Assembly (NCBI GenBank): GCA_002722245.1
Contig: PBLA01000033.1
Span: forward strand, 229,178-293,177
DNA from: Flavobacteriales bacterium
GTDB lineage: Bacteria; Bacteroidota; Bacteroidia; Flavobacteriales_C; GCA-002722245
Length of the DNA stretch: 64,000 bases
Direction: 5' to 3'
This document shows, in pieces, positions 4,796 to 51,020 of the stretch. The notes beneath the pieces were generated by a model. That model ran no database searches. It was given only the letters and a program-made list of their open reading frames with translations, and was not told where the DNA came from. A program made the position numbers and the translations under genes. Numbering within the stretch: position 1 is the first letter of the stretch; each line of letters opens with the position of its first letter.

Positions 4796-4825
4796 AATTT
4801 AAGGAAAGGTATAAGAAGAAGTAAT

Positions 4826-6381: not shown

Positions 6382-6418
6382 GCATTTACTATCTTCGTAA
6401 TCTAAAGAATAAGAGAAT

Positions 6419-6862
6419 ATGGCTGGTGTTAATAAAGTAATTTTGGTTGGTAATCTAGGGAAAGATCCTGAAGTAAGACATTTAGAAAATGGAACTGCAG
6501 TTGCTAATTTTCCCATAGCAACGAGTGAAAGTTATAAAGACAGAGATGGTAATCGAGTTGATCAAACTGAATGGCACAATATTGTTGTTTGGAGAAAACT
6601 CGCAGAAATTGCAGAAAATTATTTACGAAAAGGCAGTCAAATATATCTTGAAGGAAAATTAAGAACTCGATCTTGGGATGATCCGCAAGGCAATAAAAGG
6701 TATACTACAGAAGTTGTTGCAGACACCTTTACTATGCTCGGAAGAAGAGAGGAAAACCAGTCAGTACAAGGGGGGGCAAATTTAAGTTCTCAGCCCAACC
6801 AACAACCACTGCAGGAAGGAGCAAATACGGCTCCTGATGATGAAGATGATTTACCATTTTAA
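6419..6862 (+). CDS. ssb: Single-stranded DNA-binding protein
   Basis: OB-fold N-terminus; Gln/Pro-rich linker; acidic C-terminal tail DDEDDLPF. Confidence 0.9.
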
Positions 6863-8774: not shown

Positions 8775-8781
8775 AAGTCCA

Positions 8782-9828: not shown

Positions 9829-9855
9829 TCATTAAATTGCGCTTCCTTTCTTTCA

Positions 9856-10614: not shown

Positions 10615-10672
10615 ACCTTTAATTTTATAAAATTTTATGGATTATAACATCTTTCTTATCACAAAAGACGGC

Positions 10673-11761: not shown

Positions 11762-11918
11762 AAAGTCGTTTTTTTACAATATACACAATTAAAACATCCA
11801 CCCCCCAAATTCTAATAAAGAAAATATAATTCAATTATTTATTTTTCTAATATTAATCGTTGAATATCGAAACTTATTTTAATAATTCAAGTTTAAGGAG
11901 TCTCCAATACTATCTTGC

Positions 11919-28141: not shown

Positions 28142-28828
28142 CTATAAACGTTTGGCCTCAAGATTTATAATCCGTAATTCTAATTCAGAAAGCTTTTCAT
28201 GAACTGGATTTTTATTTTCAATGCTAAAGGAATTCGAAATTAATCCCGTTACAGTAAAAATTACGCCCTCTCCTTTTTGAGGTTCATGTCCTTGCCAAAA
28301 AATTTGGCTATCACGTAAAACAAGATATCCAAAAGCTGATTTCGCCAAAATTTTCTTACAAAATAAAAGATCTCCCTTTTTAGCAAATAATCCATCCAAT
28401 AGAATCGTATCATCCAGAGGTAAACTAAACTCTGCTTTAGAGGATAAAGACGTTTTAAAAAAAGTGTTTTGTCCAATTAATTCGTAATCTCCATGTTTCT
28501 CCTTCAACAATTTAGGAAGAATAGAAGGAAGATTAAACCCTTCGGAATCTTGTTTACTCTTTCCTATAATATTCTCTGGAGAAAAACCAGAGAGTTGATT
28601 AACAGTCAACTCTGTTGTGATAATATGATCTAACGAAATGCTAAATTTATTAGCAATTAGTTTCAATGTTTCAATCTTTGGTTCTGCTCTTCCTTCTTCA
28701 TATGATCCGATAGAACCTCGAGTTAAATTAAATATCTTACCAAACTCCGTCTGATTCAACCCCTTAGTAGTTCTTATTTTTTTTATATTTTTTCCGATTA
28801 ACGACATTTTAGCTAATTTTTTTTGCAA
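28142..28828 (-). CDS. XRE-family HTH transcriptional regulator with a C-terminal LexA/S24-like fold that apparently lacks the Ser nucleophile
   Basis: N-terminal HTH (LNQTEFGKIFNLTRGSIGSYEEGRAEP); C-terminal GDLLFCKK...GYLVLRD resembles the S24 beta-strands, but the GxSM Ser position reads DDT. Confidence 0.6.
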   Translation of the reverse strand: MQKKLAKMSLIGKNIKKIRTTKGLNQTEFGKIFNLTRGSIGSYEEGRAEPKIETLKLIANKFSISLDHIITTELTVNQLSGFSPENIIGKSKQDSEGFNLPSILPKLLKEKHGDYELIGQNTFFKTSLSSKAEFSLPLDDTILLDGLFAKKGDLLFCKKILAKSAFGYLVLRDSQIFWQGHEPQKGEGVIFTVTGLISNSFSIENKNPVHEKLSELELRIINLEAKRL

Positions 28829-28866
28829 TTAATGCTAATTTTATTTGTTTTTACAGTTTTTATTTA

Positions 28867-28878
28867 GTACAATTGTAC
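28867..28878. promoter_or_regulatory. Perfect 12-bp palindrome gtacaattgtac in the divergent promoter region between the XRE regulator and the YbjN-PspA cluster; candidate operator
   Basis: Read directly from the sequence. Confidence 0.4.
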
Positions 28879-29023
28879 AGATATGTTAGCAAACCACCAA
28901 AATAAACATCCTCCCTGGATAATTATTCCAGATAATTTAACCTAAAAAAGGCAAAAAAAACCAATAAAATGGTTTGAGTTAACAAAGAATAATTTACATT
29001 TAAAAAAAATTAAAAAAAGCAAA

Positions 29024-29419
29024 ATGGAGAACAACTTTGACAAAATCAAAAACTACATAATGGAGTTAGGTTTTGATATTTCAGTTGAAAACAAAGACGA
29101 TCAAGTTTTTGTTATTCAAGACGAAAATTTAGGAATCAAAAACCTAGTTATAGGGTGCGCAGACCCAATTTTAATTATGGAACAATTCATATTGGATGTA
29201 CAACATTCCAGTAAAGAAATGTTTCAGGAATTATTGCAAAAAAACCGTGACATTGTTCATGGTGCATTTGTTCTAGATGAAACGGGAGGAAAAGTGATTT
29301 TTAGAGATACTTTACAACTCGAAAACCTAGATAAAAATGAGTTAGAAGGATCAATCAACTCGCTAACGCTTCTTCTTTCAGAATATGGAGGACGATTAAT
29401 AGAATTTTCAAAAAACTAA
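29024..29419 (+). CDS. YbjN-like (putative sensory-transduction regulator / T3SS-chaperone-like fold) protein
   Basis: 131 aa; hydrophobic/charge pattern consistent with YbjN-domain proteins that commonly precede PspA/IM30 in Bacteroidota. Confidence 0.4.
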   Translation: MENNFDKIKNYIMELGFDISVENKDDQVFVIQDENLGIKNLVIGCADPILIMEQFILDVQHSSKEMFQELLQKNRDIVHGAFVLDETGGKVIFRDTLQLENLDKNELEGSINSLTLLLSEYGGRLIEFSKN

Positions 29420-29434: not shown

Positions 29435-30148
29435 ATGAATTTTTTCAAACGATTATTTAAAATAGGACAAGCTGAAGCACACAGTGCTTTAGATAAATTA
29501 GAAGACCCTATCAAATTAACTGAGCAAGGGATTAGAGATCTTAAACAAGACTTAAACAAGAGCTTACAAGCAGTTGCTGAAGTAAAAGCGTTGGCTATAC
29601 GAGCAAAAAATGATGTTGAAACATACTCAGAAAAAGCAAAAGACTACGAACGAAAAGCAATGCTATTACTTCAAAAAGCTCAAAAAGGAGAATTAGATGT
29701 AGCTGAGGCTGAACGATTGGCGACTGAAGCGCTTGCCAGAAAAGAAGAGCAAACAGTATTGCTAAATCAATCTCAATCCAATAAGGAAAACTTTGAAGGA
29801 AAAGTAGAGCAGTTGAACAAAAATGTAGCGACAATAAAATCAAACATTTCCAAATGGGAAAACGAATTAAAAACCCTAAAAGCACGTGTTAAGGTAAGTG
29901 AGGCTACTAAAAAGCTAAACAAGCAAATGTCGAATATTGATTCTACTGGAACAGTCTCTATGTTGGAAAAAATGAAAGACAAAGTTGCTCAGGAGGAAGC
30001 TTTAGCAGAATCTTATGGAGAAATTGCAAATGAAAGCAAAAGTCTTGACGACGATATTGAAGCAGCCATTGGTGATTCATCTCAAACAAAAGCTGCATCA
30101 GATTTAGAAGCTTTAAAAGCTAAAATGGGATTGAACAATCCCGAATAA
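29435..30148 (+). CDS. pspA: PspA/IM30 (phage shock protein A / Vipp1, ESCRT-III superfamily) protein
   Basis: 237 aa, all-helical, coiled-coil; the N-terminal FKRLFKIGQAEAHSALDKLEDPIKLTEQGIRDLKQDL matches the PspA N-terminus. Confidence 0.85.
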   Translation: MNFFKRLFKIGQAEAHSALDKLEDPIKLTEQGIRDLKQDLNKSLQAVAEVKALAIRAKNDVETYSEKAKDYERKAMLLLQKAQKGELDVAEAERLATEALARKEEQTVLLNQSQSNKENFEGKVEQLNKNVATIKSNISKWENELKTLKARVKVSEATKKLNKQMSNIDSTGTVSMLEKMKDKVAQEEALAESYGEIANESKSLDDDIEAAIGDSSQTKAASDLEALKAKMGLNNPE

Positions 30149-30224: not shown

Positions 30225-30902
30225 ATGTTTTTAGTATATCTATCGGGGATTGTAGACATTTTGTTTTCTCCCCCCAACATAATACCTACTCTTATTTTTG
30301 GGTTCGTAATGAGTTACTGGCTTTTAGTTATACTCGGAGCACTAGATATGAGTTCTCTAGATATTGATTTAGAGTTTGATGTAGAGGCAGATATTGAGAT
30401 AGATTATGATGCCGATCTAGCTTCAACGGGAGAACACGATGTTTCCTTTTTAAATAATGTATTGCGATTTTTCAATCTAAAGGATATTCCGCTAATGTTT
30501 TTTATTACATTTTGGATATTTCCTACACTCTTCGCCAATGCATTGATTAACAACATTATTGGAATAGAAACTTTTTTACCCTCTTTGGTCATCTTTATTC
30601 CAATTTCATTTATCTCCCTATTCATCGCTAAATATGCTACTATGCCTTTTGTTAAAATGTTTAAAGCGTTAGAAGATGAATCAGAATCAGCAATTGATTT
30701 ATTGGGTAGAATAGTTACCATAAAATTCCCAATTTCAGATTCAAAAATTGGTCAGGCTGAATCCTATGAAAACGGATCAAGCTTATTATTAAATGTAAAA
30801 ACAAAAAACGGGGAAATGCAAAAAGGAGATCAGGCTATGCTTGTAAAATACATCTCAAAAGATGATTGCTATTTAGTAGAACCCCATCACTCAATCGATT
30901 AA
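30225..30902 (+). CDS. YqiJ/DUF1449-like (NfeD-like) inner-membrane protein with a C-terminal OB-fold-like domain
   Basis: TM helices, acidic linker (DIDLEFDVEADIEIDYDAD), beta-rich C-terminus; immediately upstream of the flotillin gene, as in the E. coli yqiJK pair. Confidence 0.45.
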   Translation: MFLVYLSGIVDILFSPPNIIPTLIFGFVMSYWLLVILGALDMSSLDIDLEFDVEADIEIDYDADLASTGEHDVSFLNNVLRFFNLKDIPLMFFITFWIFPTLFANALINNIIGIETFLPSLVIFIPISFISLFIAKYATMPFVKMFKALEDESESAIDLLGRIVTIKFPISDSKIGQAESYENGSSLLLNVKTKNGEMQKGDQAMLVKYISKDDCYLVEPHHSID

Positions 30903-30911: not shown

Positions 30912-33089
30912 ATGGAAATTTTTAACAACTTACTTTTCACGTTAGGTGGTGGATTCATCATCGTTGTGCTTGGAATATTGGCAATGGTTGCCAAGTGGTA
31001 CCGTAAAGCTGCTCAAGGGCAAGCATTAGTAAAAACAGGTGTTGGAGGAACTAAAGTCTCCTTTAATGGCAAACTAATTGTTCCTGTATTACACCGATTA
31101 GAGATCATGGATATCTCTTTAAAAAACATCACCATTGCGCGTCATGGAAACGACGGATTGGTTTGTAAAGACAATTTAAGAGCTGATATTAAGGTTGTTT
31201 TCTTCGTAAGGGTAAATAAAACCGCCGACTCGGTAATAAAGGTAGCTCAATCTGTTGGATGCAAAAGAGCATCCGATCAAGAAGCATTAGTTGGATTATT
31301 TGATTCCAAATTTTCCGAGGCCTTGAAAACCGTTGGTAAGCAATTTGATTTTGTTGATTTATATAACAAGCGTGATGAATTCCGTCAAGAAATTCTTAAG
31401 GTAATAGGGACAGACTTAAATGGTTACATTCTTGACGATGCAGCTATTGATTACCTGGAACAAACTCCAATTGAACAATTAAGTGAATCGAACATTTTAG
31501 ATGCAGAAGGGATTAAAAAAATTATTGATATTACCTCTCGTGAGAAAATCTCTGCTAACCTCATTCAACGAGAAAAAGAGAAAGTTATCACAAAACAAAA
31601 TGTTGAAGCTAGAGAAGCTATTCTTGAATTAGAAAAACAGCTTGCGGAAAAAGAGGAGCAACAAAAAAGAGAAGTAGCCAACATTAAATCACGTGAGGAA
31701 GCTGAAATTGCAAAAGTAGCGGAAGAGGAAAGACTGAAAGCAGAAAACACAAGGATTGCCGTTGAAGAACAATTATCAATTGCTGAGGAAAATAAAGATA
31801 GAGAAGTGATTGTTGCTTCTAAAAATAAAGAAAGAACTGCTGCCGTAGAAACGGAACGAGTAGAGAAAGACAGGATGCTTGAATTAACGGAAAGAGAGCG
31901 AATTGTAACACTTGCTCAAATTGAGAAAGAAAAAGCCGTTGAAGAGGAAAAAAAGAACATTCAGGAAGTTATTCGCGAAAGAGTCGCTATTGAAAAAACG
32001 GTTGTTGTTGAAGAGGAAAGTATAAAAGACACTAAAGCTCAAGCAGAGGCCGATAGAGAAAAATTAGTAGCCATTACGAAAGCAGAGGAAGAAGCAGAAG
32101 CAGCATTAGTGCAGCAAATTAAAAAAGCAGAAGCCACCAAGCAGGCTGCTGAACATTATGCAAAACAAAAATTGATTGATGCACAAGCCAATCAAGAGGC
32201 CTCTATTCAGCAAGCTCAGGCTATTAAAACTCTGGCAGATGCAAAAGCTGCCGAAGAAGCTGCGATAGGAATTTCTGAAGCTCAAGTAATGGAAGCAAAA
32301 GCTGCTGCCCACGAAAAAGAAGGAGATGCAAATGCTGCTGTAATTGAAGCTGAAGCATTAGCAGAGGCCAAAGGAATCCAGGCTAAATCTCATGCCCAAG
32401 CCATTGCAGATTTAGAAATTGGTGAAGCCGCTGCAAAAGTTGCTAAAGAAAAAGGACTTGCTGAAAGTGAGGTAATTGCAGCATTGGCAGCAGCAGAAAA
32501 AGATAAAGGATTAGCAGAGGCTGCTGTAACTTCAGAAAAATATCATGTTGAGGCGGTTGGAATTGATGAAAAAGCCGTTGCAATGAAAAAGTTTGATGAA
32601 GTTGGTAGAGAGCATGAAGAGTTCAAATTAAAGTTAGAAAAAGACAAAGAAATTGAACTTGCTGGAATAAACATTCAAAAGGACATTGCCGAGGCTCAGG
32701 CCTCTGTTCTAGGGACTGCTCTTGAATCTGCTAAAATCGATATTGTTGGTGGTGAGCAAGTATTTTTTGACAAAATTGTTAATGCAATATCAAACGGAAA
32801 ATACGTTGAGCGTGCGCTCGATAATTCATCGGCTTTAACAGAGGTAAAAGACCACCTTTTAGATAATATGAATGGGGAACACATGGGAGAACGAATAAAA
32901 TCATTAATCAATCAATTTGGCGTAACCGCTGAAGATTTGAAAAACCTAAGTGTCGCCAACTTATTGATTAAAATGAATTCTGAAGCATCCGATGCAAAAA
33001 CTAAAGGGATCCTTGCCCAGTTGCTAGAAACTGTTAATAAAGCGGGAATTGGCAACCTCACCCCTGAAAGTTTAGGAATAAGAAAATAA
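30912..33089 (+). CDS. Flotillin / SPFH (band 7) family protein, YqiK-like, with an extended Glu/Ala/Lys-rich coiled coil
   Basis: N-terminal TM segment; SPFH domain; about 300 aa of EA-rich coiled coil; flotillin C-terminal region. Confidence 0.8.
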   Translation: MEIFNNLLFTLGGGFIIVVLGILAMVAKWYRKAAQGQALVKTGVGGTKVSFNGKLIVPVLHRLEIMDISLKNITIARHGNDGLVCKDNLRADIKVVFFVRVNKTADSVIKVAQSVGCKRASDQEALVGLFDSKFSEALKTVGKQFDFVDLYNKRDEFRQEILKVIGTDLNGYILDDAAIDYLEQTPIEQLSESNILDAEGIKKIIDITSREKISANLIQREKEKVITKQNVEAREAILELEKQLAEKEEQQKREVANIKSREEAEIAKVAEEERLKAENTRIAVEEQLSIAEENKDREVIVASKNKERTAAVETERVEKDRMLELTERERIVTLAQIEKEKAVEEEKKNIQEVIRERVAIEKTVVVEEESIKDTKAQAEADREKLVAITKAEEEAEAALVQQIKKAEATKQAAEHYAKQKLIDAQANQEASIQQAQAIKTLADAKAAEEAAIGISEAQVMEAKAAAHEKEGDANAAVIEAEALAEAKGIQAKSHAQAIADLEIGEAAAKVAKEKGLAESEVIAALAAAEKDKGLAEAAVTSEKYHVEAVGIDEKAVAMKKFDEVGREHEEFKLKLEKDKEIELAGINIQKDIAEAQASVLGTALESAKIDIVGGEQVFFDKIVNAISNGKYVERALDNSSALTEVKDHLLDNMNGEHMGERIKSLINQFGVTAEDLKNLSVANLLIKMNSEASDAKTKGILAQLLETVNKAGIGNLTPESLGIRK

Positions 33090-33137: not shown

Positions 33138-36100
33138 ATGATTAAAATCAATCAATTCGGAAAAAGATTAATGTCAGCGCGTAAGAAGGAAAATAAAACA
33201 TCATCCAACGGCTCGCTTGAGCAAGGAACCTATGAGATTATTAAAGGTCGATTGCAAAAAGGGGCTGACGATTTAAAGCAGCGATTAGAGAAATTAAATA
33301 ATTTGCGTAAAGAGGTATTTGGTTCTGTTGAAACAGAATTAATTGCCAATGAAAGAATCACTACAGAAAATAAGTGTATTCCACGTGACATGATTTCTTT
33401 TGGTAACTCCTTTATATTTGGGTACAACGTCCACATAGGTTTAAGGACAACTACTACTGTTGCCGATGTTTTTACAGTAGCCGATTTTAAAGATCGCCGA
33501 TTCCAAGCAAGTTCTTCCCAAATTTTAACGGATAAGCGATTTGTTGCTGAATTTGAAAACTTATACCAATACTACCGTGAAACCCAATTTTCTAAATTTG
33601 CAGAGATTGGACCTTTCTTGTACATGATTTTTCAAATCGGTAAAAAGATTGACGACATTAAAGTGTTTAAATGGCAAAAGGACAATGATCGATTAACCTA
33701 CATTGATAATAGAAGTGCCCATGAAGTCGTTTATCCAGACCAACATGAATTTAAATGGAAACGAACGAATCGTGATATGTATCGCCATGGTGATCATTCT
33801 CACATTTCTTTAGAGGATAAAATATTTGTTGAAACCATTGGTGGAGATTTAACTATTAAAATTGAGGACAATACGGATACAGGAAAAGGAATTTATGCTG
33901 AGCCTGTGGAATATCGGGAGCAGGTATTAGAAGATGCTGATATAAATTATGCTATTGTAGACAATCTAGTCTTTTTAAAAATGCGTCCTTACAAGGAAGA
34001 GACGACGCGGTTTATTATTTATAATGATAAAATTAAGGAAGCCACACGCGTAGACGCTATTGAAAAATGTTGTGCATTATTACCCGATGATCACGGTGTA
34101 ATCTTTCCTCAAGGAATGTATTTACAAACAGGTGAAGTACGATTATTTAACCTAGAGTTAAATGATATGCTTTTTGAAAAACGAATAGCCTCTCCTAATG
34201 GAGAAGACTTTATGTACGTTTTTTATAATCAAATCGCCGGTATATACCTCCTGTTATCATACAATCTAATTGAACAAACCATCAGTAAGCCAATTGTTTG
34301 TCACGGTTATTCATTATTTGACAATGGCGAATTATGTTTCTTCAAATCGGAAGATGAAGCACAAGCTCATCACGCGATTCAAATTTGGGCAACACCTTAT
34401 ATCTCTAATGGGTTTACTTCAGTAAATGAATCTGAAAACTTTTTGAGTAAAGTTGGAAACAAGGAGGTGGTAAGGGCAATGGCCGAGTGTAAAGAGGTTA
34501 TAAAGCTCGTAGAGAAAGAAGATTCCTACGAAGGTCTGTATGTAGATTTAGTAAGAAAAACAACAGATGTGCTGGATTCATATTATTGGCTAAACAAAAA
34601 AGAAACCTATCTTCTTGAAGTACCGCTTTCCGATATTCAAAAGTCATCCAACAATGCGATTGAGGAGTTTGAAAAAGTAGTAAAATTAAAAAAAGCGAGT
34701 GCCGAAGCCCTCACGGAAGTTGAAAAGGCATATAATGAATTAATAAAAGGCATAAAACGATCAACAAACGATAACATCGATAAGTTTGTGGAGCTTTTAG
34801 TCCAGTTGAGAACAATTCGAGGAAATGTCATCTCATTAAAAGACAAACGTTATATCAATTTATTGAGAATTGAAGAAATAGACAAAGACCTCGAACTTCA
34901 AGGGAATAAATTGAGTGAAAATTGTGTTAAATTTCTACTCAAAGCAGAAGCTTTACAACCCTATGCATTTAAAGTAGAGCAAGTAAAGAGCGAGGTTCAA
35001 AGCCTCAAAAAAGTAGTTGATGCTCATACTGCAGAGGAAAACATCGAAAAGATTTCTTCTGAACTAGAAATGTTAATCGACATTGTTAGCAATTTAAAAA
35101 TTGAAGACCCAACAAAAACAACCAAAATAATTGATGGGATCTCAGAAATCTATTCCCAATTTAACCTTATCAACGCGACGCTTAAAAAGAAACGTAAAGA
35201 GCTGCAAAGCAATGAAGGAAAGGCCGAATTTAACGCTCAAATTAAATTAATCTCTCAAGGGATAATAAACTATTTGGATTTATGTGACGAACCCGATAAA
35301 TGTGATGAATACTTATCTAAATTAATGATTCAGCTGGAGGAACTTGGTGGTAAATTCTCTGAGTTCGACGAATTCATTGAAGTCCTAACTAATAAAAGAG
35401 AGGAAATTTATAATGCTTTTGAAGCAAAAAAAGTACAACTCATTGAAAAACGAAACAAGAAATCTACTTCTCTTAAATCCTCAGCAGATAGAATAATTTC
35501 CGGAATCACGAATCGCCTAAAAGGAATGAAATCCGAGAGTGAAATTAATGGTTACATGGTTTCGGACTTAATGGTTGATAAAGTAAGGGATGTTATTAAA
35601 GAATTAATCCATCTTGGTGATACTGTAAAAGCGGATGAAATTCAAAGTCGTTTAAAACGTATTCAAGAGGATGCTTTAAGACAATTAAAAGATAAAAATG
35701 AACTCTTTGAAAGTGAAAATGTCATTTCTTTTGGAAAACATAAATTCCTCGTTAACAAACAAAATATAGATCTAACAATTGTTCCGAAGGAAAATGAACA
35801 ATATTACCACATCACTGGGACAAACTTCTTTGAAAAAATTGACCATGAAGAATTCGATCACACAAAGGCGGTTTGGGATCAATCGGTAATCTCTGAATCA
35901 AATGAAGTTTATAGAGGTGAATACCTTGCTTGGTTATTATTTCAAAGAACAATCGCTGAAGGGCCGAAAGCCCAACATGAGTTAATTAATCTGTCCGATC
36001 ACGAACTGATCGATTTTGTAGGCAAGTTTATGTCAAATCGTTATCAGGAAAGTTATGCAAAAGGAATACATGATAAAGATGGAGCGATCATTCTAAAAAG

Positions 36101-38063
36101 ATTAATGGAAATGTACCTCAACGGAGGAGTACTAAAATTTTCTCCATTTGTTAGAGCCTGTGGAATTTTCGCCTGGCAATTTGAATTAACTGAAGATACG
36201 CGCGCGCAGTATCAAAAAAGGATTCATGCTGTTGGGGTTTTGAAGCAGGCTTTTCCAAATACGAGTGAATCTGCAGATTTAGAGAATGATTTAGCCAACT
36301 CCATTCATCCATTTATAGAGGCCAATTCCATCGAAGTAAATGTTCACGCATGTGCACAATACCTTATTGAGGAACTAAATAGTGATGATAAGTTTTCGAT
36401 AGGAAAAGAAGCATTTGAATTAGGTGATTATTTCAATAAACATCTAAAAGATAATAAACTTACTGAAGCATTTAACAAATCAATTGATCAAATTGATGAT
36501 CCTTTCTCAAAATTTAAACTCATTGTTAGCTGGATAAAAGCGTTCTCAGTTGATTTAAAACTTGATTATAGTGCGTTCATTGAGGAAACATCTGCATTCT
36601 TCCTGATCGAAAAAAGTAGAATTAATCTAATAAACTTTTCTCTTTTCTCGGATTTAAAAGGATTGATTGGTGACCATGCAAATATTGTAAAAGGGAAATA
36701 CCACTTAAACTATCACTCGTACTACCAAAAACTAGTTAAATACACCAAAGAAACCGTCCCATTATTTAATATATACACTACACTAAAAAAAGAGCTTATT
36801 AATCAATTTAAGGACGATTTAAAACTAAATGAATTAAAACCAAAGGTGATGTCATCCTTTGTAAGAAACAAACTCATCAATCAAGTATACCTTCCTTTAA
36901 TTGGAGACAACCTTGCGAAGCAAATTGGTTCTGCAGGAGATACTAAACGAACTGATTTAATGGGAATGTTACTTTTGATTTCTCCACCTGGATATGGAAA
37001 AACTACCTTAATGGAATACATTGCCTCACGATTAGGAATTGTATTTTTAAAGGTGAATGGACCTGCTCTCGGTCATAATGTTGTTTCTTTAGACCCTTCA
37101 GATGCACCTAATATGAGTGCAAGAGAAGAGATTGAGAAATTAAACCTCGGATTAGAAATGGGTGATAACGTTATGATCTATCTAGATGATATACAGCACT
37201 GTAATCCTGAATTTTTACAGAAATTCATTTCGCTATGTGATGCACAAAGGAAAATCGAAGGGGTGTATAAAGGAAAGTCAAAAACGTATGATCTTCGAGG
37301 TAAAAAAGTATGTGTAGTAATGGCTGGAAACCCATTTACTGAGAGTGGAGAAAAATTTCAAATCCCTGATATGCTTTCCAATCGAGCAGATATTTATAAC
37401 CTTGGAGATATCATTGGTGATCAATCGGATGCGTTCAATTTAAGCTACATTGAAAACGCCTTAACATCAAATGTTATTCTAAGAAATTTAGTAGGAAAGT
37501 CTCAAAACGATTTATACAGTTTAATTAAAATAGCCGAATCTGGAAGTACCGAAGGAATCGAATTTGAATCAAACCACACTTCAGAGGAGATTAAGGACTA
37601 CGTAAGTGTACTCCAAAAAATGTTAAAAGTAAGGGACATCATTTTGGAAGTCAATAAGGAGTACATAAAATCGGCTGCCATGGATGATCAATACCGAACA
37701 GAGCCCCCTTTTAAACTACAAGGATCTTACCGAAATATGAATAGAATGGCCGAGAAAATTTTAGCCATTATGAATGAGGACGAGTTGAAGACTTTAGTGA
37801 TGAGTTATTACGAAAATGAAAGCCAAACATTAACAACAAGTGCAGAGGCTAATCTTCTTAAATTTAAAGGCCTCAAAAATTGGCGGAACGACTCGGAAAA
37901 TGTTCGATGGAAAGAAATTTTAGCCGTCTTCCAAAAGGCGCAAAAAATGAAAGGTTTTGGCGCCAATGCTCAAATGGGAGCATTATTAGATAAAGTAGAA
38001 TTATTAACACAAGGAATATTTGGAATTCGGGATAATTTAAACAATGAAAATATTGAGCATTAA
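33138..38063 (+). CDS. Giant (1641 aa) uncharacterised protein: long N-terminal region with coiled coils (family not recognised), C-terminal MoxR/AAA_5-type ATPase module and tail
   Basis: Walker A LLLISPPGYGKTTL, Walker B MIYLDDIQHCNPEFLQKF, sensor VCVVMAGNP, arginine-containing IPDMLSNRADIYNL; this is the MoxR/McrB/dynein-type AAA pattern. Confidence 0.6.
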   Translation: MIKINQFGKRLMSARKKENKTSSNGSLEQGTYEIIKGRLQKGADDLKQRLEKLNNLRKEVFGSVETELIANERITTENKCIPRDMISFGNSFIFGYNVHIGLRTTTTVADVFTVADFKDRRFQASSSQILTDKRFVAEFENLYQYYRETQFSKFAEIGPFLYMIFQIGKKIDDIKVFKWQKDNDRLTYIDNRSAHEVVYPDQHEFKWKRTNRDMYRHGDHSHISLEDKIFVETIGGDLTIKIEDNTDTGKGIYAEPVEYREQVLEDADINYAIVDNLVFLKMRPYKEETTRFIIYNDKIKEATRVDAIEKCCALLPDDHGVIFPQGMYLQTGEVRLFNLELNDMLFEKRIASPNGEDFMYVFYNQIAGIYLLLSYNLIEQTISKPIVCHGYSLFDNGELCFFKSEDEAQAHHAIQIWATPYISNGFTSVNESENFLSKVGNKEVVRAMAECKEVIKLVEKEDSYEGLYVDLVRKTTDVLDSYYWLNKKETYLLEVPLSDIQKSSNNAIEEFEKVVKLKKASAEALTEVEKAYNELIKGIKRSTNDNIDKFVELLVQLRTIRGNVISLKDKRYINLLRIEEIDKDLELQGNKLSENCVKFLLKAEALQPYAFKVEQVKSEVQSLKKVVDAHTAEENIEKISSELEMLIDIVSNLKIEDPTKTTKIIDGISEIYSQFNLINATLKKKRKELQSNEGKAEFNAQIKLISQGIINYLDLCDEPDKCDEYLSKLMIQLEELGGKFSEFDEFIEVLTNKREEIYNAFEAKKVQLIEKRNKKSTSLKSSADRIISGITNRLKGMKSESEINGYMVSDLMVDKVRDVIKELIHLGDTVKADEIQSRLKRIQEDALRQLKDKNELFESENVISFGKHKFLVNKQNIDLTIVPKENEQYYHITGTNFFEKIDHEEFDHTKAVWDQSVISESNEVYRGEYLAWLLFQRTIAEGPKAQHELINLSDHELIDFVGKFMSNRYQESYAKGIHDKDGAIILKRLMEMYLNGGVLKFSPFVRACGIFAWQFELTEDTRAQYQKRIHAVGVLKQAFPNTSESADLENDLANSIHPFIEANSIEVNVHACAQYLIEELNSDDKFSIGKEAFELGDYFNKHLKDNKLTEAFNKSIDQIDDPFSKFKLIVSWIKAFSVDLKLDYSAFIEETSAFFLIEKSRINLINFSLFSDLKGLIGDHANIVKGKYHLNYHSYYQKLVKYTKETVPLFNIYTTLKKELINQFKDDLKLNELKPKVMSSFVRNKLINQVYLPLIGDNLAKQIGSAGDTKRTDLMGMLLLISPPGYGKTTLMEYIASRLGIVFLKVNGPALGHNVVSLDPSDAPNMSAREEIEKLNLGLEMGDNVMIYLDDIQHCNPEFLQKFISLCDAQRKIEGVYKGKSKTYDLRGKKVCVVMAGNPFTESGEKFQIPDMLSNRADIYNLGDIIGDQSDAFNLSYIENALTSNVILRNLVGKSQNDLYSLIKIAESGSTEGIEFESNHTSEEIKDYVSVLQKMLKVRDIILEVNKEYIKSAAMDDQYRTEPPFKLQGSYRNMNRMAEKILAIMNEDELKTLVMSYYENESQTLTTSAEANLLKFKGLKNWRNDSENVRWKEILAVFQKAQKMKGFGANAQMGALLDKVELLTQGIFGIRDNLNNENIEH

Positions 38064-38128: not shown

Positions 38129-38533
38129 ATGTTAGGATTAGATGAAAAAAGCAGTCAACTCGCGAACTTATTAAAAGTAGCTTACGCCGATGGATCGGTG
38201 AATTATTTTGAAGACATGTTCATAAAATTAATTGTAGGTAAAATGGGAATTAAACCACAAGAATTTAAATATGTTATTGACAACCTTGATAAGATCTCAT
38301 TCACTGCTCCAAAAACAGATGAGCAAAAAGTGAGCTATTTCTGGCAAGTTCTTCAAGTAATGAAAATGGACATGGTTGCGGATGAAAAAGAATTGGAACT
38401 TTGTAAAGAAATTGGTCAACGAATTGGTTTTTCAAACGCACAAGTTGAAAAGGTAGTTGATTATATGGCTTCTAATTTAAGAACAGTCGTTCAATTAGAA
38501 GATTTTAAAAAACTTATAGCAGAACCTGCTTAA
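38129..38533 (+). CDS. TerB-like (tellurite-resistance TerB / DjlA-N-like) domain protein
   Basis: 134 aa, helical; ANLLKVAYADGSVNYFEDMFI...KMDMVADEKELEL is typical of the TerB fold. Confidence 0.5.
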   Translation: MLGLDEKSSQLANLLKVAYADGSVNYFEDMFIKLIVGKMGIKPQEFKYVIDNLDKISFTAPKTDEQKVSYFWQVLQVMKMDMVADEKELELCKEIGQRIGFSNAQVEKVVDYMASNLRTVVQLEDFKKLIAEPA

Positions 38534-39139: not shown

Positions 39140-39844
39140 TTAACCTATTCTATTGACTAGATCCTTCAAAGTCAATTTTAATTTCAGTCGTCCATCGCGA
39201 TATTTCGTTTTTTGATGATTTGGCTTAAAATCTTTTCCTTCAAAAGATTTAACGGGATTCCCTCGTTCTACCTCTGTATGTTGGGTCCATGTTTGCTTTT
39301 GCATATCAATTATCGAGTTCATTTCACTTTGTTTTAATGCGATGAGCAATTTACGTTTTGCCTCTCGCTTGTTTTGTAATTGAGACGCTGAGCCTCTTGA
39401 TACTGCGGTTACTCCAGTTGGGCCATGTACTGCCCTTACAGCAGTTTCCACTTTGTTTACATGTTGTCCACCTGGACCGCCAGCGCGAAAGGTTTGATAA
39501 TAGATTTCACCTTCACTAATTTGGAATTGATTTCTATTGAATGTCACTTCATTCACTCCAACAAACCAGTTTTTACGTTTATGAAATCTTCTGTACGGGC
39601 TTTTACCAATCCACTGAATGGTGCCAATCCATCCAAATAAAAAAGAATTAATTTGTTCTCCTTCCACCTGAATCGTAGCCGATAAAAGCGTATTCTTTTC
39701 ATTACCTTCTTCGCGCGTAACTACTTTGGCGACGACGCCTTTATCTCTGGCCGATTTCAAAAACTGTTTTAAAACTTGGGCTACAACCCAAGCACATTCT
39801 AAAGGTCCTCTTCCTGCTGTTATATGTATAATTTTCATTTCCAT
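39140..39844 (-). CDS. prfH: Peptide chain release factor homologue RF-H
   Basis: GGQ motif (GGPGGQHVNKVETAVR); short class-I RF lacking domain 1; immediately downstream of rtcB. Confidence 0.8.
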   Translation of the reverse strand: MEMKIIHITAGRGPLECAWVVAQVLKQFLKSARDKGVVAKVVTREEGNEKNTLLSATIQVEGEQINSFLFGWIGTIQWIGKSPYRRFHKRKNWFVGVNEVTFNRNQFQISEGEIYYQTFRAGGPGGQHVNKVETAVRAVHGPTGVTAVSRGSASQLQNKREAKRKLLIALKQSEMNSIIDMQKQTWTQHTEVERGNPVKSFEGKDFKPNHQKTKYRDGRLKLKLTLKDLVNRIG

Positions 39845-39864
39845 GATTTAATCATTTAAAACTT

Positions 39865-41340
39865 TTATCGTTCTTTATCCATTCTTACAATCCGTGGATA
39901 AAACTTTCCTTCAATATTTATTAAGTTCTTCTGCGCCTTAATTACATTATCAATATTCTTGTAAGCAATTGGAGCTTCGTCAACCCCTCCTCCGATTAGT
40001 GTTACTTTTTCGCGTTTTAATATTTTTTTAAGTTCACTTCTCGTTATTGCATTTTTGGCTTTAGTTCTGCTTAACTCTCTTCCTGCTCCATGTGAAGCTG
40101 AATTCAAACTAGCCACCTCTCCTTTCCCACTTACAATATATCCCGGATGGATCATTGATCCGGGAATGACCCCCAACTCACCCTTGTGAGCCGGGGTTGC
40201 TCCTTTTCGATGCACAATCAATTCCTGATCTTCAATTTTCTCCTTCCAAGCAAAATTGTGGTGGTTTTCAATTTTTGCAATTGGTTTCCCTCCCACTAAT
40301 TTCCCTAATCTGTAATGTATATGATCATGACATGCCTTGGCGTAATCGCCAGCTAAATTCATAGCCATCCAGTACTCAGCTCCAGCCTCAGAATGTATAT
40401 CCAACCAAGCTAAATGCTGTACTTCGCGGGGAAGCAAACAAGACTCTTTAGCTAATCTTGTATAATACTGAGCAATTCCTGCTCCAAATCCTCGAGAACC
40501 AGAGTGAGAAAGAATGCCGACATATTCCCCATTTGGAATGTTAAAGCCTTTTTGTTCGTTTTGAAAATCCTGCTCAAATACCACTTTTCCGAACTCCACA
40601 AAATGATTCCCGCTTCCAGAGCTCCCAATTTGCTGAATAGCTTTATTCATTAAGCTTTTCACAATTGGAATTTCTTTAAACTCTGGACGATCGAATAAAT
40701 CATCTGAACGAGGATTTTCTATGGCATTTCCACTTCCAAATGCAGTATTACCTATTAACCCTTCAGAGAGTTGGTACTCATATCTATCCAAATAAGCAGG
40801 ACGAACATCGTAAATACTTAAACTCATTCGGCACCCTATATCTACACCCACACCATATGGAATAATATGGTTTTTACTTGCCAATACGCCGCCGATTGGC
40901 AATCCATATCCCACATGAGCATCAGGCATTAACGCACCCTTTTCTGCAATAGGCAAACGCATTGCTGTACTCATTTGCTGTATTGTATTTGATGTAACAT
41001 GCTCCCTCCCAAAAACATTGAAATCGCCGCTTTCTTTATTGATATCAATAATCTGTTTGGGAGCAATGTCATTTACTATAATAAATTCCGCTGCCAACTT
41101 CCCAAGGGTGTCATGATCTTTATATTTTTCAGCATTTAAAAGAACGTCTTCTAATAAGCTAATCTTCTCTTTTTTAGTAGAGTGTTTAGCTATTCTATTA
41201 CAATAATCTAATGCTATACTTTTAGATTTTGGTGTAGTATATCCAAGTTTGCTAAGGTCTTTTCCTCTTAATTTATTATTTGCCATTATTATTTGGTTTG
41301 ATTGTTTTTCATAAGGAATAGTTATCCCATTCAAAGACAT
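39865..41340 (-). CDS. rtcB: RtcB-family RNA ligase (RtcB2 partner of PrfH)
   Basis: 491 aa; conserved RtcB metal-binding His/Cys/Asp motifs (HxGxG, GSGNHF, NHHNF). Confidence 0.85.
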   Translation of the reverse strand: MSLNGITIPYEKQSNQIIMANNKLRGKDLSKLGYTTPKSKSIALDYCNRIAKHSTKKEKISLLEDVLLNAEKYKDHDTLGKLAAEFIIVNDIAPKQIIDINKESGDFNVFGREHVTSNTIQQMSTAMRLPIAEKGALMPDAHVGYGLPIGGVLASKNHIIPYGVGVDIGCRMSLSIYDVRPAYLDRYEYQLSEGLIGNTAFGSGNAIENPRSDDLFDRPEFKEIPIVKSLMNKAIQQIGSSGSGNHFVEFGKVVFEQDFQNEQKGFNIPNGEYVGILSHSGSRGFGAGIAQYYTRLAKESCLLPREVQHLAWLDIHSEAGAEYWMAMNLAGDYAKACHDHIHYRLGKLVGGKPIAKIENHHNFAWKEKIEDQELIVHRKGATPAHKGELGVIPGSMIHPGYIVSGKGEVASLNSASHGAGRELSRTKAKNAITRSELKKILKREKVTLIGGGVDEAPIAYKNIDNVIKAQKNLINIEGKFYPRIVRMDKER

Positions 41341-41713: not shown

Positions 41714-42397
41714 TTAAAAATCCACAAACACATCCCACAATTTTTCAAACTCCTTTAAATACGCCTTCACCATCTTAGGATCTTCCGTAACCAATAAATT
41801 TTCTTGATTTCTGTCAGCAGCACTTTTAGTCCAGTTATAACTACCTGTTAAAAGTATTTCTCTATCCACTATGCAAAACTTGTGGTGCATGTGACTACTG
41901 GATTCATCTATTCTAATTCTCACTTCTTCATCTGCTAGCCACCTGATGTCACTTCCTTTATCGTTCAATTTATCATTGTCTGTAATTATAGTAACCGATA
42001 CCCCTCTCTTTTTAGCCGCTATAATCTCATTTGTAATGACATTTTCACTAATGGTAAAAACACAAATTTTTATACTGTGTTTTGCATTTCTAATACACGA
42101 AACAATTGCATTTTCACAATCGTCTCCTGGACTAAAATAACATCGGTTTTCAACCTCATTTTTATCCTTTACTGGAAGTAAGCACTTATTTATCTCCTCC
42201 AACCAAGTTACGAGTCTGATGGTTTCAGCATCACTCGAATCGTTTTGTGCCAACTCAAAAAATTGACTTCGGAGAACATTTAATTCATGATTTGAAGGTT
42301 TTTTAGCCTTTATAAGATTCTTTAATGTTTGCTTGTCCCTACTATAAAATTCTTTCGTTTTAAAGGAGGATTTTAAAAATTCTATGATTTCATCCAT
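41714..42397 (-). CDS. PLD-family single-HKD protein (Nuc-like endonuclease/phosphodiesterase) with a ~95-aa N-terminal helical extension
   Basis: HKD motif HHKFCIVD...GSYNWTKSA. Confidence 0.7.
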   Translation of the reverse strand: MDEIIEFLKSSFKTKEFYSRDKQTLKNLIKAKKPSNHELNVLRSQFFELAQNDSSDAETIRLVTWLEEINKCLLPVKDKNEVENRCYFSPGDDCENAIVSCIRNAKHSIKICVFTISENVITNEIIAAKKRGVSVTIITDNDKLNDKGSDIRWLADEEVRIRIDESSSHMHHKFCIVDREILLTGSYNWTKSAADRNQENLLVTEDPKMVKAYLKEFEKLWDVFVDF

Positions 42398-42424: not shown

Positions 42425-43270
42425 TTAAGTGGACTCAAAATACAAAAGCTCCCATGCTTTTTTTATGTTATTCTCCATTAACATTTTTTTCACCGCTCTA
42501 TACGTTTTAGGATCACTGGTAATCTTCATTTTCTTTAAATCAAATGGAATTGACTTCACATTCGCTAATTTGGAAATTTCATTTCCAGTAAGGAATGTAC
42601 TTTCCTTTATCTCAAGAGGAAGGTTATCCCAACCAATAGCGATTTCTGTACTTTCTTTCTTCACACGAAACAAAGAACCCTCATTCACTTTGGTATAAAA
42701 GTCCTGACCTAAACGTGCAATCAAATCTAATTTTTCAATGTTAATCTGAAAATCCTCACCAATAATGCCCTTCTTAAAATGAGAGGTTAACACTTCACAG
42801 AGCACTAAATTTCCAGCCCCCCCTTTTTCACCTAATGCCAGTGTTGAAATCACTTTACATTCAAAACTAGCAAGAGCCTCGGATACACGAGGTGGTTGAA
42901 CTGTAGTTGACTTTAACGATGTAAAACCAGATTTCTCAAACTCATTTATTGAAGCATCGTAATCATTCCCTGCAATGGACATTTGCTCAACATGATTTAA
43001 ACCTATGATGTTAATCACAACTTCTGCCACTTGATGCACATTATTAAGAGTATCTTTTGTTGTATTCTTCCTAAGTCTTCTTAACGGCGAGAAAACCAAA
43101 ATGGGTGGATCGATACTCATTACATTAAAAAAACTAAATGGTGCCAGATTTATCATTCCTGCATCATTACAAGAACTCACTAGGGCAATAGGTCTTGGAC
43201 CGATTATTCCAGAAAGTAATCGATAATACATTCTTGGTTCAATATCTTTTGGGCTAATATTATCCATCAT
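42425..43270 (-). CDS. Flavin reductase-like domain protein
   Basis: N-terminal YRLLSGIIGPRPIALVSS matches the flavin-reductase/FMN-binding split-barrel family. Confidence 0.55.
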   Translation of the reverse strand: MMDNISPKDIEPRMYYRLLSGIIGPRPIALVSSCNDAGMINLAPFSFFNVMSIDPPILVFSPLRRLRKNTTKDTLNNVHQVAEVVINIIGLNHVEQMSIAGNDYDASINEFEKSGFTSLKSTTVQPPRVSEALASFECKVISTLALGEKGGAGNLVLCEVLTSHFKKGIIGEDFQINIEKLDLIARLGQDFYTKVNEGSLFRVKKESTEIAIGWDNLPLEIKESTFLTGNEISKLANVKSIPFDLKKMKITSDPKTYRAVKKMLMENNIKKAWELLYFEST

Positions 43271-44331: not shown

Positions 44332-44459
44332 TGACTTTAAATCAATAATATAATCTCCTATTCTACTGGCTATTCTTTTCGACTTCCCTTTAGAAAAAAC
44401 ACCAAAAGGAATATTATATATCGAAAAATCAGATTCTGAAGATATGTTTAACCAAGTTT

Positions 44460-46714: not shown

Positions 46715-46715
46715 A

Positions 46716-47951: not shown

Positions 47952-48087
47952 ACGTTGTTAACGAAAGAAAATTTAAAACGGATACACTTCTTTCCAGACA
48001 TTGTTTTAGCTGAGTGTTGATTTACAGAAACTTATGTATTCAAAATGCTCAAAAAAGCAGGATATAATTTGACAAGTATCAATAAAA

Positions 48088-51018: not shown

Positions 51019-51020
51019 AC

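What the first reader, a model, noticed from the sequence alone, without database searches (positions are those of the whole stretch)
33138..38063. 1641-aa protein: ~1200-aa unrecognised N-terminal region plus MoxR/AAA_5-type ATPase, with no vWA partner
The Walker A (SPPGYGKTT), Walker B (IYLDDIQHCNPEFLQKF) and sensor (VVMAGNP) spacing is characteristic of the MoxR/McrB/dynein AAA_5 clade rather than the classical Vps4-type AAA. That argues against a simple Vps4-like partner for the adjacent ESCRT-III-like PspA. MoxR ATPases normally pair with vWA proteins, and none is present in this cluster. The N-terminal two-thirds has long coiled coils and no motif I can place. Proteins of this kind are often auto-annotated as 'DNA repair ATPase' without evidence.
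Basis: partly seen in the sequence, partly recalled or inferred. Interest (0 to 1): 0.7.

Follow-up and report, generated by a model that had tools for sequence, protein, structure and literature searches.

The report
Flotillin-linked giant MoxR-like AAA+ ATPase
This 1641-residue protein belongs to a widespread bacterial family (beta-propeller, helical bundles, then a MoxR-like ATPase) that almost always sits beside a membrane flotillin gene; the family and its operon were already described by comparative genomics, but nobody has tested what it does.

Summary
The ORF is real: 33138-38063 (+), 1641 aa, with the quoted motifs at residues 1282, 1347 and 1393.

The N-terminus is not unrecognised. 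Pfam DUF3686 matches residues 45-483 (E=1e-182) and DUF7902 matches 604-688. The model shows a divergent beta-propeller followed by spectrin-like helical bundles.

The family is large and keeps one architecture: at least 583 species genomes across many phyla, usually labelled "DNA repair ATPase" without evidence.

Its constant partner is flotillin, not PspA. Of 60 loci, 56 have an upstream flotillin, 51 the YqiJ/NfeD-like membrane protein and 24 PspA.

Ravi et al. 2024 already described this exact operon in Dokdonia. I also show that P. aeruginosa BacE (PA3728) of the bacABCDEF operon is a member.

Best guess: a cytoplasmic hexameric remodeller of flotillin/NfeD, and where present PspA, membrane assemblies. 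This rests on gene linkage and fold only.

Verdict: already known as an uncharacterised system; moderately interesting.

The parts
28142..28828 (-). Divergently transcribed XRE/cI-type HTH regulator (228 aa). It is the probable regulator of the PspA-containing version of the operon.
   Evidence: Pfam HTH_3 E=3e-11. A divergent homologue is present in 22 of 60 related loci, co-occurring with CesT-PspA. Ravi Table S3 lists '<-cHTH+Protease' at the same position in Dokdonia.
29024..29419 (+). CesT/Tir-like (YbjN-like) chaperone-fold protein, 131 aa.
   Evidence: Pfam CesT_Tir_1 E=9e-56 over the full length. Found upstream on the same strand in 20 of 60 loci.
29435..30148 (+). PspA/IM30 (ESCRT-III superfamily) protein, 237 aa.
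   Evidence: Pfam PspA_IM30 E=5e-40. Found upstream on the same strand in 24 of 60 loci.
30225..30902 (+). YqiJ/YuaF-type short-NfeD membrane protein, 225 aa, about 3 TM segments.
   Evidence: Hydrophobic segments at 18-43, 88-108 and 110-140. A homologue lies upstream of the flotillin in 51 of 60 loci. Ravi et al. name the Dokdonia counterpart YqiJ-YuaF. It gets no Pfam hit.
30912..33089 (+). Flotillin-type SPFH protein, 725 aa, with an N-terminal membrane anchor and a long Ala/Glu-rich coiled coil.
   Evidence: N-terminal TM-like segment 1-30. tblastn gives 43-58% identity to plasmid genes annotated 'flotillin family protein' or 'SPFH domain-containing protein'. It lies immediately upstream of the ATPase in 56 of 60 loci. 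It gets no Pfam, NCBIfam or PDB sequence hit.
33138..38063 (+). The 1641-aa ATPase (whole ORF, stop codon included); soluble, with no TM segment.
   Evidence: More than 3461 full-length homologues.
33270..34586 (+). DUF3686 region (residues 45-483): an N-terminal helix plus a divergent beta-propeller (strands at about 67-418).
   Evidence: Pfam PF12458 E=1.1e-182. AF2 model pLDDT about 85-92 with about 27 strands. Foldseek hits to WD40 and other propellers: DCAF1 E=4e-6 with TM 0.43 normalised to the target, plus CyRPA, Vps18 and PON1.
34440..35705 (+). Helical-bundle / coiled-coil region (residues 435-856), which includes DUF7902 (604-688; nt 34947-35201).
35715..36617 (+). Small beta subdomain (862-900) plus a helical domain (926-1156). 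This is the least conserved part.
   Evidence: Model. Mean column identity 0.33 for residues 926-1160, against 0.87 for the AAA core.
36948..37757 (+). AAA+ module (residues about 1271-1540). Walker A 1282-1290 (nt 36981-37007). Walker B YLDDIQH 1348-1354 (nt 37179-37199). Pre-sensor-1 hairpin 1372-1386. Sensor 1 MAGNP 1395-1399. Arg finger SNRAD 1414-1418. Putative sensor 2 QGSYR 1528-1532.
37758..38060 (+). C-terminal helical extension (residues 1541-1641).
   Evidence: Model helices. Moderately conserved, 0.56.
38129..38533 (+). TerB-like 134-aa protein downstream; a lineage-specific addition, not part of the conserved core.
   Evidence: Partial Pfam TerB match, E=3e-8. Present in the 88%-identical relative. 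Detected downstream in only 2 of 60 diverse loci.

Best explanation
The gene encodes a soluble cytoplasmic AAA+ machine of a distinct, deeply conserved lineage whose nearest structural relatives are the MoxR-family remodellers CbbQ and NorQ.

Inferred model: the C-terminal ATPase modules form a ring, probably a hexamer. Each subunit carries a roughly 1200-residue arm made of a beta-propeller, spectrin-like helical bundles and a helical domain. In place of the separate vWA adaptor that MoxR proteins use, this built-in arm recruits the ring to the cytoplasmic face of the membrane cage formed by the co-encoded flotillin (SPFH) and YqiJ/NfeD proteins. ATP binding and hydrolysis then remodel that assembly: assembling, opening or dismantling it, or pulling on a tail. 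In the Bacteroidota and Pseudomonas versions, the target also includes the PspA (ESCRT-III-like) polymer delivered by the CesT-like chaperone, as part of a membrane-stress response.

Shown here: the domain anatomy, the structural neighbourhood of the ATPase, the family-wide invariant motifs, and the gene linkage.

Inferred only: ring formation, physical contact with flotillin, the direction of remodelling, and the physiological role.

For: 2. The catalytic motifs are invariant from Bacteroidota to Planctomycetota, Verrucomicrobiota and Desulfobacterota. Walker A and Walker B also recur in the Gammaproteobacteria and Streptomyces homologues inspected. Column identity in the core is 0.87. This points to a functioning enzyme under strong constraint.

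3. Gene linkage is strong. Flotillin lies immediately upstream on the same strand in 56 of 60 loci, the YqiJ/NfeD-like gene in 51, PspA in 24 and CesT in 20. The same triad is annotated or detected on replicons of Pseudomonas fluorescens, Proteus, Streptomyces, Deinococcus and Hymenobacter.

4. The protein has no TM segment, whereas flotillin and the NfeD-like protein are membrane anchored.

5. In P. aeruginosa the homologue BacE is co-transcribed with the PspA, NfeD and flotillin genes. It rises 8.9-fold together with them in a bacA mutant (PMC10948618; homology shown).

6. Precedents from established knowledge: SPFH cages partner with AAA+ machines (HflK/C with FtsH, prohibitin with the m-AAA protease). 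MoxR ATPases remodel specific complexes through an adaptor (CbbQ with CbbO, NorQ with NorD).

7. Ravi et al. independently proposed ATP-dependent membrane-associated assembly roles for these operons.
Against: - No interaction, ATPase activity or phenotype has been measured for any member.
- Linkage does not say which partner is the substrate.
- The Walker B catalytic Glu is replaced by an invariant Asp (DDIQH). The protein may therefore be a slow nucleotide switch or scaffold rather than a processive remodeller.
- Four of 60 loci lack an adjacent flotillin.
- A paFlo3 (bacD) deletion in P. aeruginosa has only marginal phenotypes (PMC13086221).
Confidence: 0.5

Rival explanations
1. It is a nucleotide-gated scaffold or tether rather than a remodeller. 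The ring acts as a slow ATP switch, and its six propeller-tipped arms organise or cross-link flotillin cages or membrane patches, like a coat, without doing mechanical work on a substrate.
For: Invariant Asp in place of the catalytic Glu of Walker B. From memory, DnaA carries a similar DDIQ motif and is a slow, regulated ATPase. The arms are very long, spectrin-like helical segments. Foldseek gives low-TM resemblances to proteins that combine a beta-propeller with helical regions, such as clathrin heavy chain, IFT-A, Vps18 and nucleoporins.
Against: Sensor 1, the Arg finger and the sensor-2-like motif are all invariant, which is what a hydrolysing AAA+ enzyme would show. The coat-protein matches have TM scores of about 0.1 normalised to the query, and they mostly reflect the propeller alone.
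Confidence: 0.2
2. It is the bacterial Vps4 analogue dedicated to PspA. On this view it disassembles the ESCRT-III-like PspA polymer, and flotillin is only a membrane platform.
For: It shares an operon with PspA here and in 24 of 60 loci, plus Pseudomonas. A 2025 review states that a Vps4-like ATPase appears absent in bacteria (PMC7619361), so the role is open.
Confidence: 0.12
3. It is a DNA repair or chromosome-maintenance ATPase, as the database names say.
For: The only support is the inherited name: the Pfam DUF3686 description and the NCBI 'DNA repair ATPase' label. There are weak coiled-coil-driven similarities, and one Desulfobacterales locus sits next to an MksE-like gene.
Against: There is a single AAA+ P-loop at residue 1282. 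An SMC, RecN or Rad50 ABC head would be split by a coiled coil. There is no SMC or Rad50 family hit for this protein, no recognisable DNA-binding domain, and the neighbours are consistently membrane proteins.
Confidence: 0.03
4. It is an anti-phage or conflict system: a large NTPase with a repeat sensor domain, comparable to MoxR-vWA or STAND systems.
For: A large ATPase fused to a beta-propeller. One locus lies next to a TIR-domain gene. Copies occur on plasmids and megaplasmids.
Confidence: 0.05

Closest known systems
The 'beta-propeller + coiled-coil + AAA+ ATPase' of CesT/Tir-PspA-YqiJ-flotillin operons (Ravi et al. 2024, mSystems, PMC11237479; example locus Dokdonia donghaensis ANH61663.1). 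This is the Pfam DUF3686/DUF7902 family.
   Same: Same gene order, including the divergent cHTH regulator, and the same domain architecture. The window protein is a full-length member.
   Different: Nothing essential differs. This study adds four things: the structural placement next to CbbQ/NorQ, the invariant DD Walker B, counts showing that flotillin/NfeD is the constant partner, and a lineage-specific TerB-like gene downstream.
P. aeruginosa BacE (PA14_16190 / PA3728) of the sigma54-dependent bacABCDEF 'biofilm-associated cluster' (Wallart et al. 2024, PMC10948618).
   Same: A contig carrying the paper's bacD forward primer and giving its exact 557-bp amplicon encodes a DUF3686 N-terminus (38% identity over 472 aa, E=3e-112) directly after the flotillin. 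Related high-GC contigs show the order DUF2170, PspA, TM protein, flotillin, ATPase.
   Different: The first gene is a DUF2170/YjfI-type CesT-like protein rather than CesT_Tir_1. Regulation is by sigma54 rather than a divergent HTH. A sixth gene, bacF, follows. BacE itself has not been studied functionally.
MoxR-family AAA+ ATPases CbbQ (6l1q) and NorQ (9qh4).
   Same: They are the best structural matches for the ATPase module: about 230 aligned residues at rmsd about 3.5 A. They share the pre-sensor-1 hairpin and the NP sensor-1 and Arg-finger motif pattern.
   Different: Those proteins are about 260 aa and act with separate vWA/MIDAS partners (CbbO, NorD); both points are from established knowledge. 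This protein is 1641 aa with a built-in propeller and helical arm. It has no vWA partner, a DD rather than DE Walker B, 13-15% identity, and no Pfam AAA_3 or CbbQ_C match.
SPFH cage plus AAA+ pairs (HflK/C with FtsH, prohibitin with the m-AAA protease).
   Same: The theme is the same: an SPFH-family membrane cage genetically or physically coupled to an AAA+ machine.
   Different: FtsH is membrane-anchored, belongs to the classical AAA clade and carries a protease domain. This ATPase is soluble, MoxR-like and has no protease.
Vps4 with ESCRT-III.
   Same: An AAA+ gene encoded beside an ESCRT-III superfamily gene (PspA).

Membership tests
DUF3686/DUF7902 AAA+ family (the 'DNA repair ATPase' / beta-propeller-CC-AAA+ protein of flotillin operons) | Full-length DUF3686 domain at the N-terminus | tested here: met
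   PF12458 E=1.1e-182, profile positions 1-448 of 448
DUF3686/DUF7902 AAA+ family (the 'DNA repair ATPase' / beta-propeller-CC-AAA+ protein of flotillin operons) | DUF7902 helical domain in the middle | tested here: met
   PF25472 E=3.2e-26, profile positions 1-85 of 85
DUF3686/DUF7902 AAA+ family (the 'DNA repair ATPase' / beta-propeller-CC-AAA+ protein of flotillin operons) | C-terminal AAA+ module with the family-invariant motifs SPPGYGKTT, DDIQH, MAGNP and NRAD | tested here: met
   All are invariant columns in the 68- and 32-sequence alignments
DUF3686/DUF7902 AAA+ family (the 'DNA repair ATPase' / beta-propeller-CC-AAA+ protein of flotillin operons) | Located directly downstream of the YqiJ/NfeD-like and flotillin genes | tested here: met
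   True in the window and in 51-56 of 60 loci
MoxR family (AAA+ pre-sensor-II insert clade) | AAA+ core structurally closest to MoxR members | tested here: met
MoxR family (AAA+ pre-sensor-II insert clade) | Sequence profile membership (Pfam AAA_5, AAA_3, CbbQ_C) | tested here: inconclusive
   AAA_5 scores 25.9 bits (cut-off 22) but classical AAA scores 28.8 bits. All 32 members tested match both, and none matches AAA_3 or CbbQ_C
MoxR family (AAA+ pre-sensor-II insert clade) | Pre-sensor-1 beta-hairpin | tested here: met
   Two strands in the model, positions 258-263 and 266-271 (residues 1372-1385), lie between helix 3 and strand 4
MoxR family (AAA+ pre-sensor-II insert clade) | Helix-2 insert beta-hairpin | tested here: inconclusive
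   DSSP shows only a short helix and a loop between strand 2 and helix 2 (model positions 194-211), with no hairpin.
MoxR family (AAA+ pre-sensor-II insert clade) | Pre-sensor-II helical insert | tested here: inconclusive
   About 110 residues and at least three helices lie between strand 5 and the GSYR sensor-2-like motif. This is compatible with an insert but was not superposed
MoxR family (AAA+ pre-sensor-II insert clade) | Adjacent vWA/MIDAS-domain partner gene | tested here: not met
   No vWA domain in the 15 flanking ORFs. The conserved neighbours are flotillin and NfeD-like genes. No vWA-like alpha/beta domain appears in either model
MoxR family (AAA+ pre-sensor-II insert clade) | Canonical hhhhDE Walker B | tested here: not met
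   Invariant DD (YLDDIQH) in all aligned homologues
Vps4 / classical AAA clade | N-terminal MIT domain, and a classical AAA core without a pre-sensor-1 hairpin | tested here: not met
SMC/RecN/Rad50-type DNA repair ATPases | ABC-type head split by a long coiled coil: N-terminal Walker A, C-terminal signature motif and Walker B | tested here: not met
   A single contiguous AAA+ module at 1271-1540. No SMC or Rad50 model hits this protein
Known anti-phage defence systems (PADLOC-DB 2.0) | Significant match of any operon protein to a defence-system model | tested here: not met
   Best ATPase hit is mad8, E=6e-4 at 17 bits. Only generic HTH hits were found for the regulator

The most novel reading that the evidence does not exclude
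The family may be the long-missing ATP-driven remodeller of bacterial flotillin (SPFH) cages, and, where PspA is co-encoded, of ESCRT-III-like polymers. That would make it a MoxR-derived machine that replaced the vWA adaptor with a built-in propeller and spectrin-like arm, and a functional analogue of Vps4 or NSF for bacterial membrane microdomains.
Probability: 0.3. Interest if true: 0.8.

Novelty: already known. Interest (0 to 1): 0.4.

Why it matters
How bacterial flotillin cages and PspA polymers are assembled, opened and recycled is unknown. A 2025 review states that a Vps4-like ATPase appears absent in bacteria (PMC7619361).

This ATPase is strictly flotillin-linked, extremely conserved and found in many phyla, so it is the obvious candidate energy source. 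It is present in tractable organisms, including P. aeruginosa (BacE/PA3728), Proteus mirabilis and Streptomyces.

Correcting the misleading 'DNA repair ATPase' label would also improve annotation of thousands of genomes.

The idea is not new, however. The operon and its 'novel AAA+ ATPase' were pointed out by Ravi et al. 2024.

Tried and rejected
- **Sequence searches against PDB.** With the single protein and with a family profile, only the Walker A to beta2 stretch matched (p97, RuvB). These searches could not assign a clade.
- **Pfam on 32 ATPase modules.** AAA and AAA_5 tied.
- **Flotillin identification.** Pfam, NCBIfam and PDB sequence searches gave nothing for the flotillin. Its identity rests on tblastn to annotated flotillin/SPFH genes and on the literature.
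- **Literature searches.** DUF3686, PF12458 and 'DNA repair ATPase' plus flotillin all returned no papers.
- **The printed P. aeruginosa reverse primer.** It gave no metagenome hit. Removing one A, which restores the family motif TENNC, gave four hits.
- **Promoter and terminator scan.** Uninformative: fewer sigma70-like sites than in shuffled sequence.
- **PLD as an operon member.** The PLD gene at 41714-42397 has homologues within 10 kb in 6 of 60 loci, but it is not syntenic in the 88%-identical relative. Rejected as a core part.
- **TerB-like gene as a core part.** Rejected: detected downstream in 2 of 60 loci.
- **DUF444/YeaH at 51021-52280 as a hidden vWA partner.** Rejected, because it belongs to the PrkA-YeaH-SpoVR module.
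Full report
**Observation**

The ORF at 33138-38063 (+) is real. It starts with ATG and encodes 1641 aa. The quoted motifs are at residues 1282-1290 (SPPGYGKTT), 1347-1363 (IYLDDIQHCNPEFLQKF) and 1393-1399 (VVMAGNP).

It is the fifth gene of a co-directional cluster:
- 29024-29419: CesT_Tir_1/YbjN-like protein (E=9e-56)
- 29435-30148: PspA/IM30 (E=5e-40)
- 30225-30902: a roughly 3-TM YqiJ/NfeD-like protein
- 30912-33089: a 725-aa flotillin-type protein with an N-terminal anchor
- 33138-38063: the ATPase
- 38129-38533: a TerB-like protein

An XRE/cI-type HTH gene lies upstream, divergently transcribed (28142-28828). None of the 15 flanking ORFs carries a vWA domain. T9SS sorting domains in neighbouring genes, together with the best named hits (Cryomorpha, Owenweeksia), place the window in Bacteroidota, probably Flavobacteriales.

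**The N-terminal region is not unrecognised**

Pfam DUF3686 covers residues 45-483 end to end (E=1.1e-182). Pfam DUF7902 covers 604-688 (E=3e-26).

An AlphaFold2 model of residues 1-1190 (68-sequence alignment, mean pLDDT 82.8) shows these elements in order:
- a disordered tail (1-26) and a long helix (29-61)
- a domain of about 27 strands (67-418)
- long helices (435-856)
- a small beta subdomain (862-900)
- a further helical domain (926-1156)

**The ATPase module**

A model of residues 1115-1641 (pLDDT 81.8) shows a canonical AAA+ alpha/beta core. It has a two-strand pre-sensor-1 hairpin (residues 1372-1385) and a helical lid. A QGSYR motif, which looks like sensor 2, lies about 110 residues after strand 5.

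Sequence alone is ambiguous:
- Pfam AAA scores 28.8 bits and AAA_5 scores 25.9 bits. All 32 family members tested match both, and none matches AAA_3 or CbbQ_C.
- A family profile hits only the Walker A to beta2 stretch of p97, Cdc48 and RuvB in the PDB.
- No helix-2 hairpin is visible in the model.

I therefore treat it as a distinct AAA+ lineage nearest to MoxR, not as a MoxR family member.

One feature is family-specific: Walker B is an invariant Asp-Asp (YLDDIQH) rather than Asp-Glu. The core is extraordinarily conserved, with mean column identity 0.87 against 0.33 for the 926-1160 domain.

**Family and distribution**

More than 3461 full-length homologues were scored. The best 120 are 52-100% identical over 97-100% of the query (all but one at 98% or more) and carry the same Pfam set. 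Named entries read 'DNA repair ATPase', 'AAA family ATPase' or 'MoxR-like ATPase'.

They include Bacteroidota, Planctomycetota, Verrucomicrobiota, Desulfobacterota, Kiritimatiellota and Hydrogenedentes.

tblastn against plasmid-collection records found full-length homologues (33-49% identity, 97-98% coverage) in Hymenobacter, Proteus mirabilis, Pseudomonas fluorescens pQBR103, Vibrio, Photobacterium, Halomonas, Streptomyces, Nonomuraea and Deinococcus.

An exhaustive phmmer search of 1.84 billion cluster representatives with the ATPase module gave 369 clusters at E<=1e-30 and only 865 at E<=1e-3. Full-length hits place the module at about 1150-1650 of proteins 1600-1930 aa long. The shorter hits are presumably gene fragments. 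I saw one architecture only.

**Gene context**

I ran tblastn of the window's operon proteins against the 80 fetched loci and counted the 60 with at least 5.5 kb upstream.

| Neighbour | Loci (of 60) |
|---|---|
| Flotillin, upstream, same strand | 56 |
| YqiJ/NfeD-like TM protein | 51 |
| PspA | 24 |
| CesT-like | 20 |
| Divergent HTH | 22 |
| TerB-like, downstream | 2 |
| PLD homologue within 10 kb | 6 |

In this set, the CesT-PspA-HTH add-on appears in the Bacteroidota loci plus one MAG without a phylum label. The other phyla carry the bare triad.

The triad is also seen in annotated or ORF-called records:
- Streptomyces: hypothetical, flotillin family protein, DNA repair ATPase
- Proteus: ORFs of 209, 731 and 1644 aa
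- pQBR103: a PspA and polyamine module fused upstream of hypothetical, SPFH and the ATPase

Four loci lack an adjacent flotillin, two of them from Desulfobacterales. Of the two examined, the Desulfobacterales locus L011 sits next to MksE-like and TIR genes. An 88%-identical relative keeps the whole six-gene cluster, including the TerB-like gene, but not the downstream genes.

**Literature**

Ravi et al. 2024 (PMC11237479) describe exactly this system. [quoted passage not shown] They also note that abbreviated flotillin-YqiJ(-ATPase) operons are more widespread. Their Table S3 entry for Dokdonia donghaensis has the same gene order, including the divergent cHTH regulator.

No paper mentions DUF3686 or PF12458.

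Wallart et al. 2024 (PMC10948618) showed that the P. aeruginosa bac cluster is a six-gene sigma54-dependent operon, bacABCDEF. BacE (PA14_16190) and BacF rise together with BacB, BacC and BacD in a bacA mutant. BacC is a short NfeD and BacD is the flotillin PaFlo3 (PMC13086221).

I tested whether BacE belongs to this family. The published reverse primer inside bacE gave no metagenome hit as printed. Removing one A gives a sequence that encodes T-E-N-N-C-I-A, which is the family's N-terminal motif, and that version hit four contigs. One of them (L086, GC 67%) also carries the paper's bacD forward primer and yields exactly the reported 557-bp amplicon. It encodes a DUF3686 N-terminus directly after the flotillin (38% identity over 472 aa, E=3e-112). 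Two related high-GC contigs show the order DUF2170, PspA, TM protein, flotillin, ATPase. BacE is therefore a family member.

PA3728 is listed as an 'ATPase' recurrently mutated in cystic-fibrosis isolates (PMC8190622). No functional study of BacE itself was found.

**Mechanism**

Shown here: a soluble protein with a MoxR-like AAA+ module whose catalytic motifs are under very strong constraint. It is fused to a propeller and spectrin-like arm, and it is almost always encoded after a membrane-anchored flotillin and its NfeD-like partner.

Inferred:
- It forms a ring, as AAA+ modules of this clade do.
- It docks through the arm onto the cytoplasmic flotillin/NfeD cage. The arm would take over the role of the vWA adaptor used by CbbQ (with CbbO) and NorQ (with NorD).
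- It uses ATP to remodel that assembly, and PspA polymers where they are co-encoded.

SPFH cages working with AAA+ machines have precedent in HflK/C with FtsH. The DD Walker B leaves open a slow switch or scaffold mode.

Other readings are less well supported:
- Dedicated PspA disassemblase: PspA is absent from most loci.
- DNA repair: no ABC or SMC head, no DNA-binding domain, and a membrane gene context.
- Phage defence: no PADLOC match, high conservation and stable synteny.

**Verdict**

The clade inference and the lack of a vWA partner are supported. The claim of an unrecognisable N-terminus is not.

The system is already known from comparative genomics and, as BacE, from an experimentally studied operon, but its function is untested. 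It is a good and accessible candidate for the energy-consuming component of bacterial flotillin and PspA membrane assemblies. Because it is not a new discovery, I rate interest at about 0.4.

Noticed in passing
window 48838-56118 (+): A cluster of PrkA (726 aa), DUF444/YeaH (419 aa), SpoVR (529 aa) and a second PrkA paralogue (750 aa). From memory, DUF444 is the only vWA-like candidate in the window. It belongs to the conserved PrkA/YeaG-YeaH-YcgB module and lies 10 kb from the ATPase, so it is not its partner. The duplicated PrkA is unusual.
   Followed up: partly
window 41714-42397 (-): A PLDc_2 (HKD phospholipase D-like) protein of 227 aa lies 3.6 kb downstream. Homologues lie within 10 kb of the ATPase in 6 of 60 loci, and Ravi et al. 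report a PLD in proteobacterial versions of the operon. It is not syntenic in the 88%-identical relative. This may be a loose accessory association or chance.
   Followed up: partly
window 28829-29023: The AT-rich intergenic region between the divergent HTH regulator and the CesT-like gene contains a near-palindrome, TGGATAATTATTCCA. It is a candidate operator for the regulator.
   Followed up: no
window 38129-38533 (+): A TerB-like 134-aa gene lies directly after the ATPase. It is conserved in the closest relative and in a few Flavobacteriales and Marinilabiliales loci, but it was detected downstream in only 2 of 60 loci overall.
   Followed up: partly
window 39140-41340 (-): An RtcB RNA ligase (491 aa) sits next to an RF-1-domain protein (234 aa). 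This resembles the RtcB-PrfH ribosome/RNA-repair pair.
   Followed up: no
window 43267-48822: An aromatic amino-acid catabolism block: FAA hydrolase, an HPPD-like dioxygenase, homogentisate dioxygenase, a Glu/Leu/Phe/Val dehydrogenase and a biopterin-dependent hydroxylase.
   Followed up: no
window 30912-33089 (+): The flotillin-type protein and its orthologues get no Pfam Band_7/Flot, NCBIfam or PDB sequence hit at E<0.1. They are nevertheless annotated as flotillin/SPFH elsewhere. Current profiles seem to miss this SPFH subgroup.
   Followed up: partly
L086 (metagenome contig OCJU01000003.1), positions 1759-1778: The reverse primer PA14_16180/90_R as printed in the supplement of Wallart et al. 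2024 has one more T than the matching genomic sequence. The corrected sequence gives the reported 557-bp amplicon.
   Followed up: yes
L011 1453-5993 and 13853-15622: In a Desulfococcaceae MAG the ATPase (1842 aa) has no adjacent flotillin. It is flanked instead by MksE-like and DUF3584 (condensin/Wadjet-like) genes and by a TIR-domain protein.
   Followed up: partly
L081 (P. fluorescens pQBR103) 1-12235: On this megaplasmid the hypothetical-SPFH-ATPase triad follows directly after a module of PspA, rhomboid, DUF2491, DUF350, DUF1190 and glutathionylspermidine synthase. Two of the PspA operon classes of Ravi et al. are thus joined in one array.
   Followed up: no
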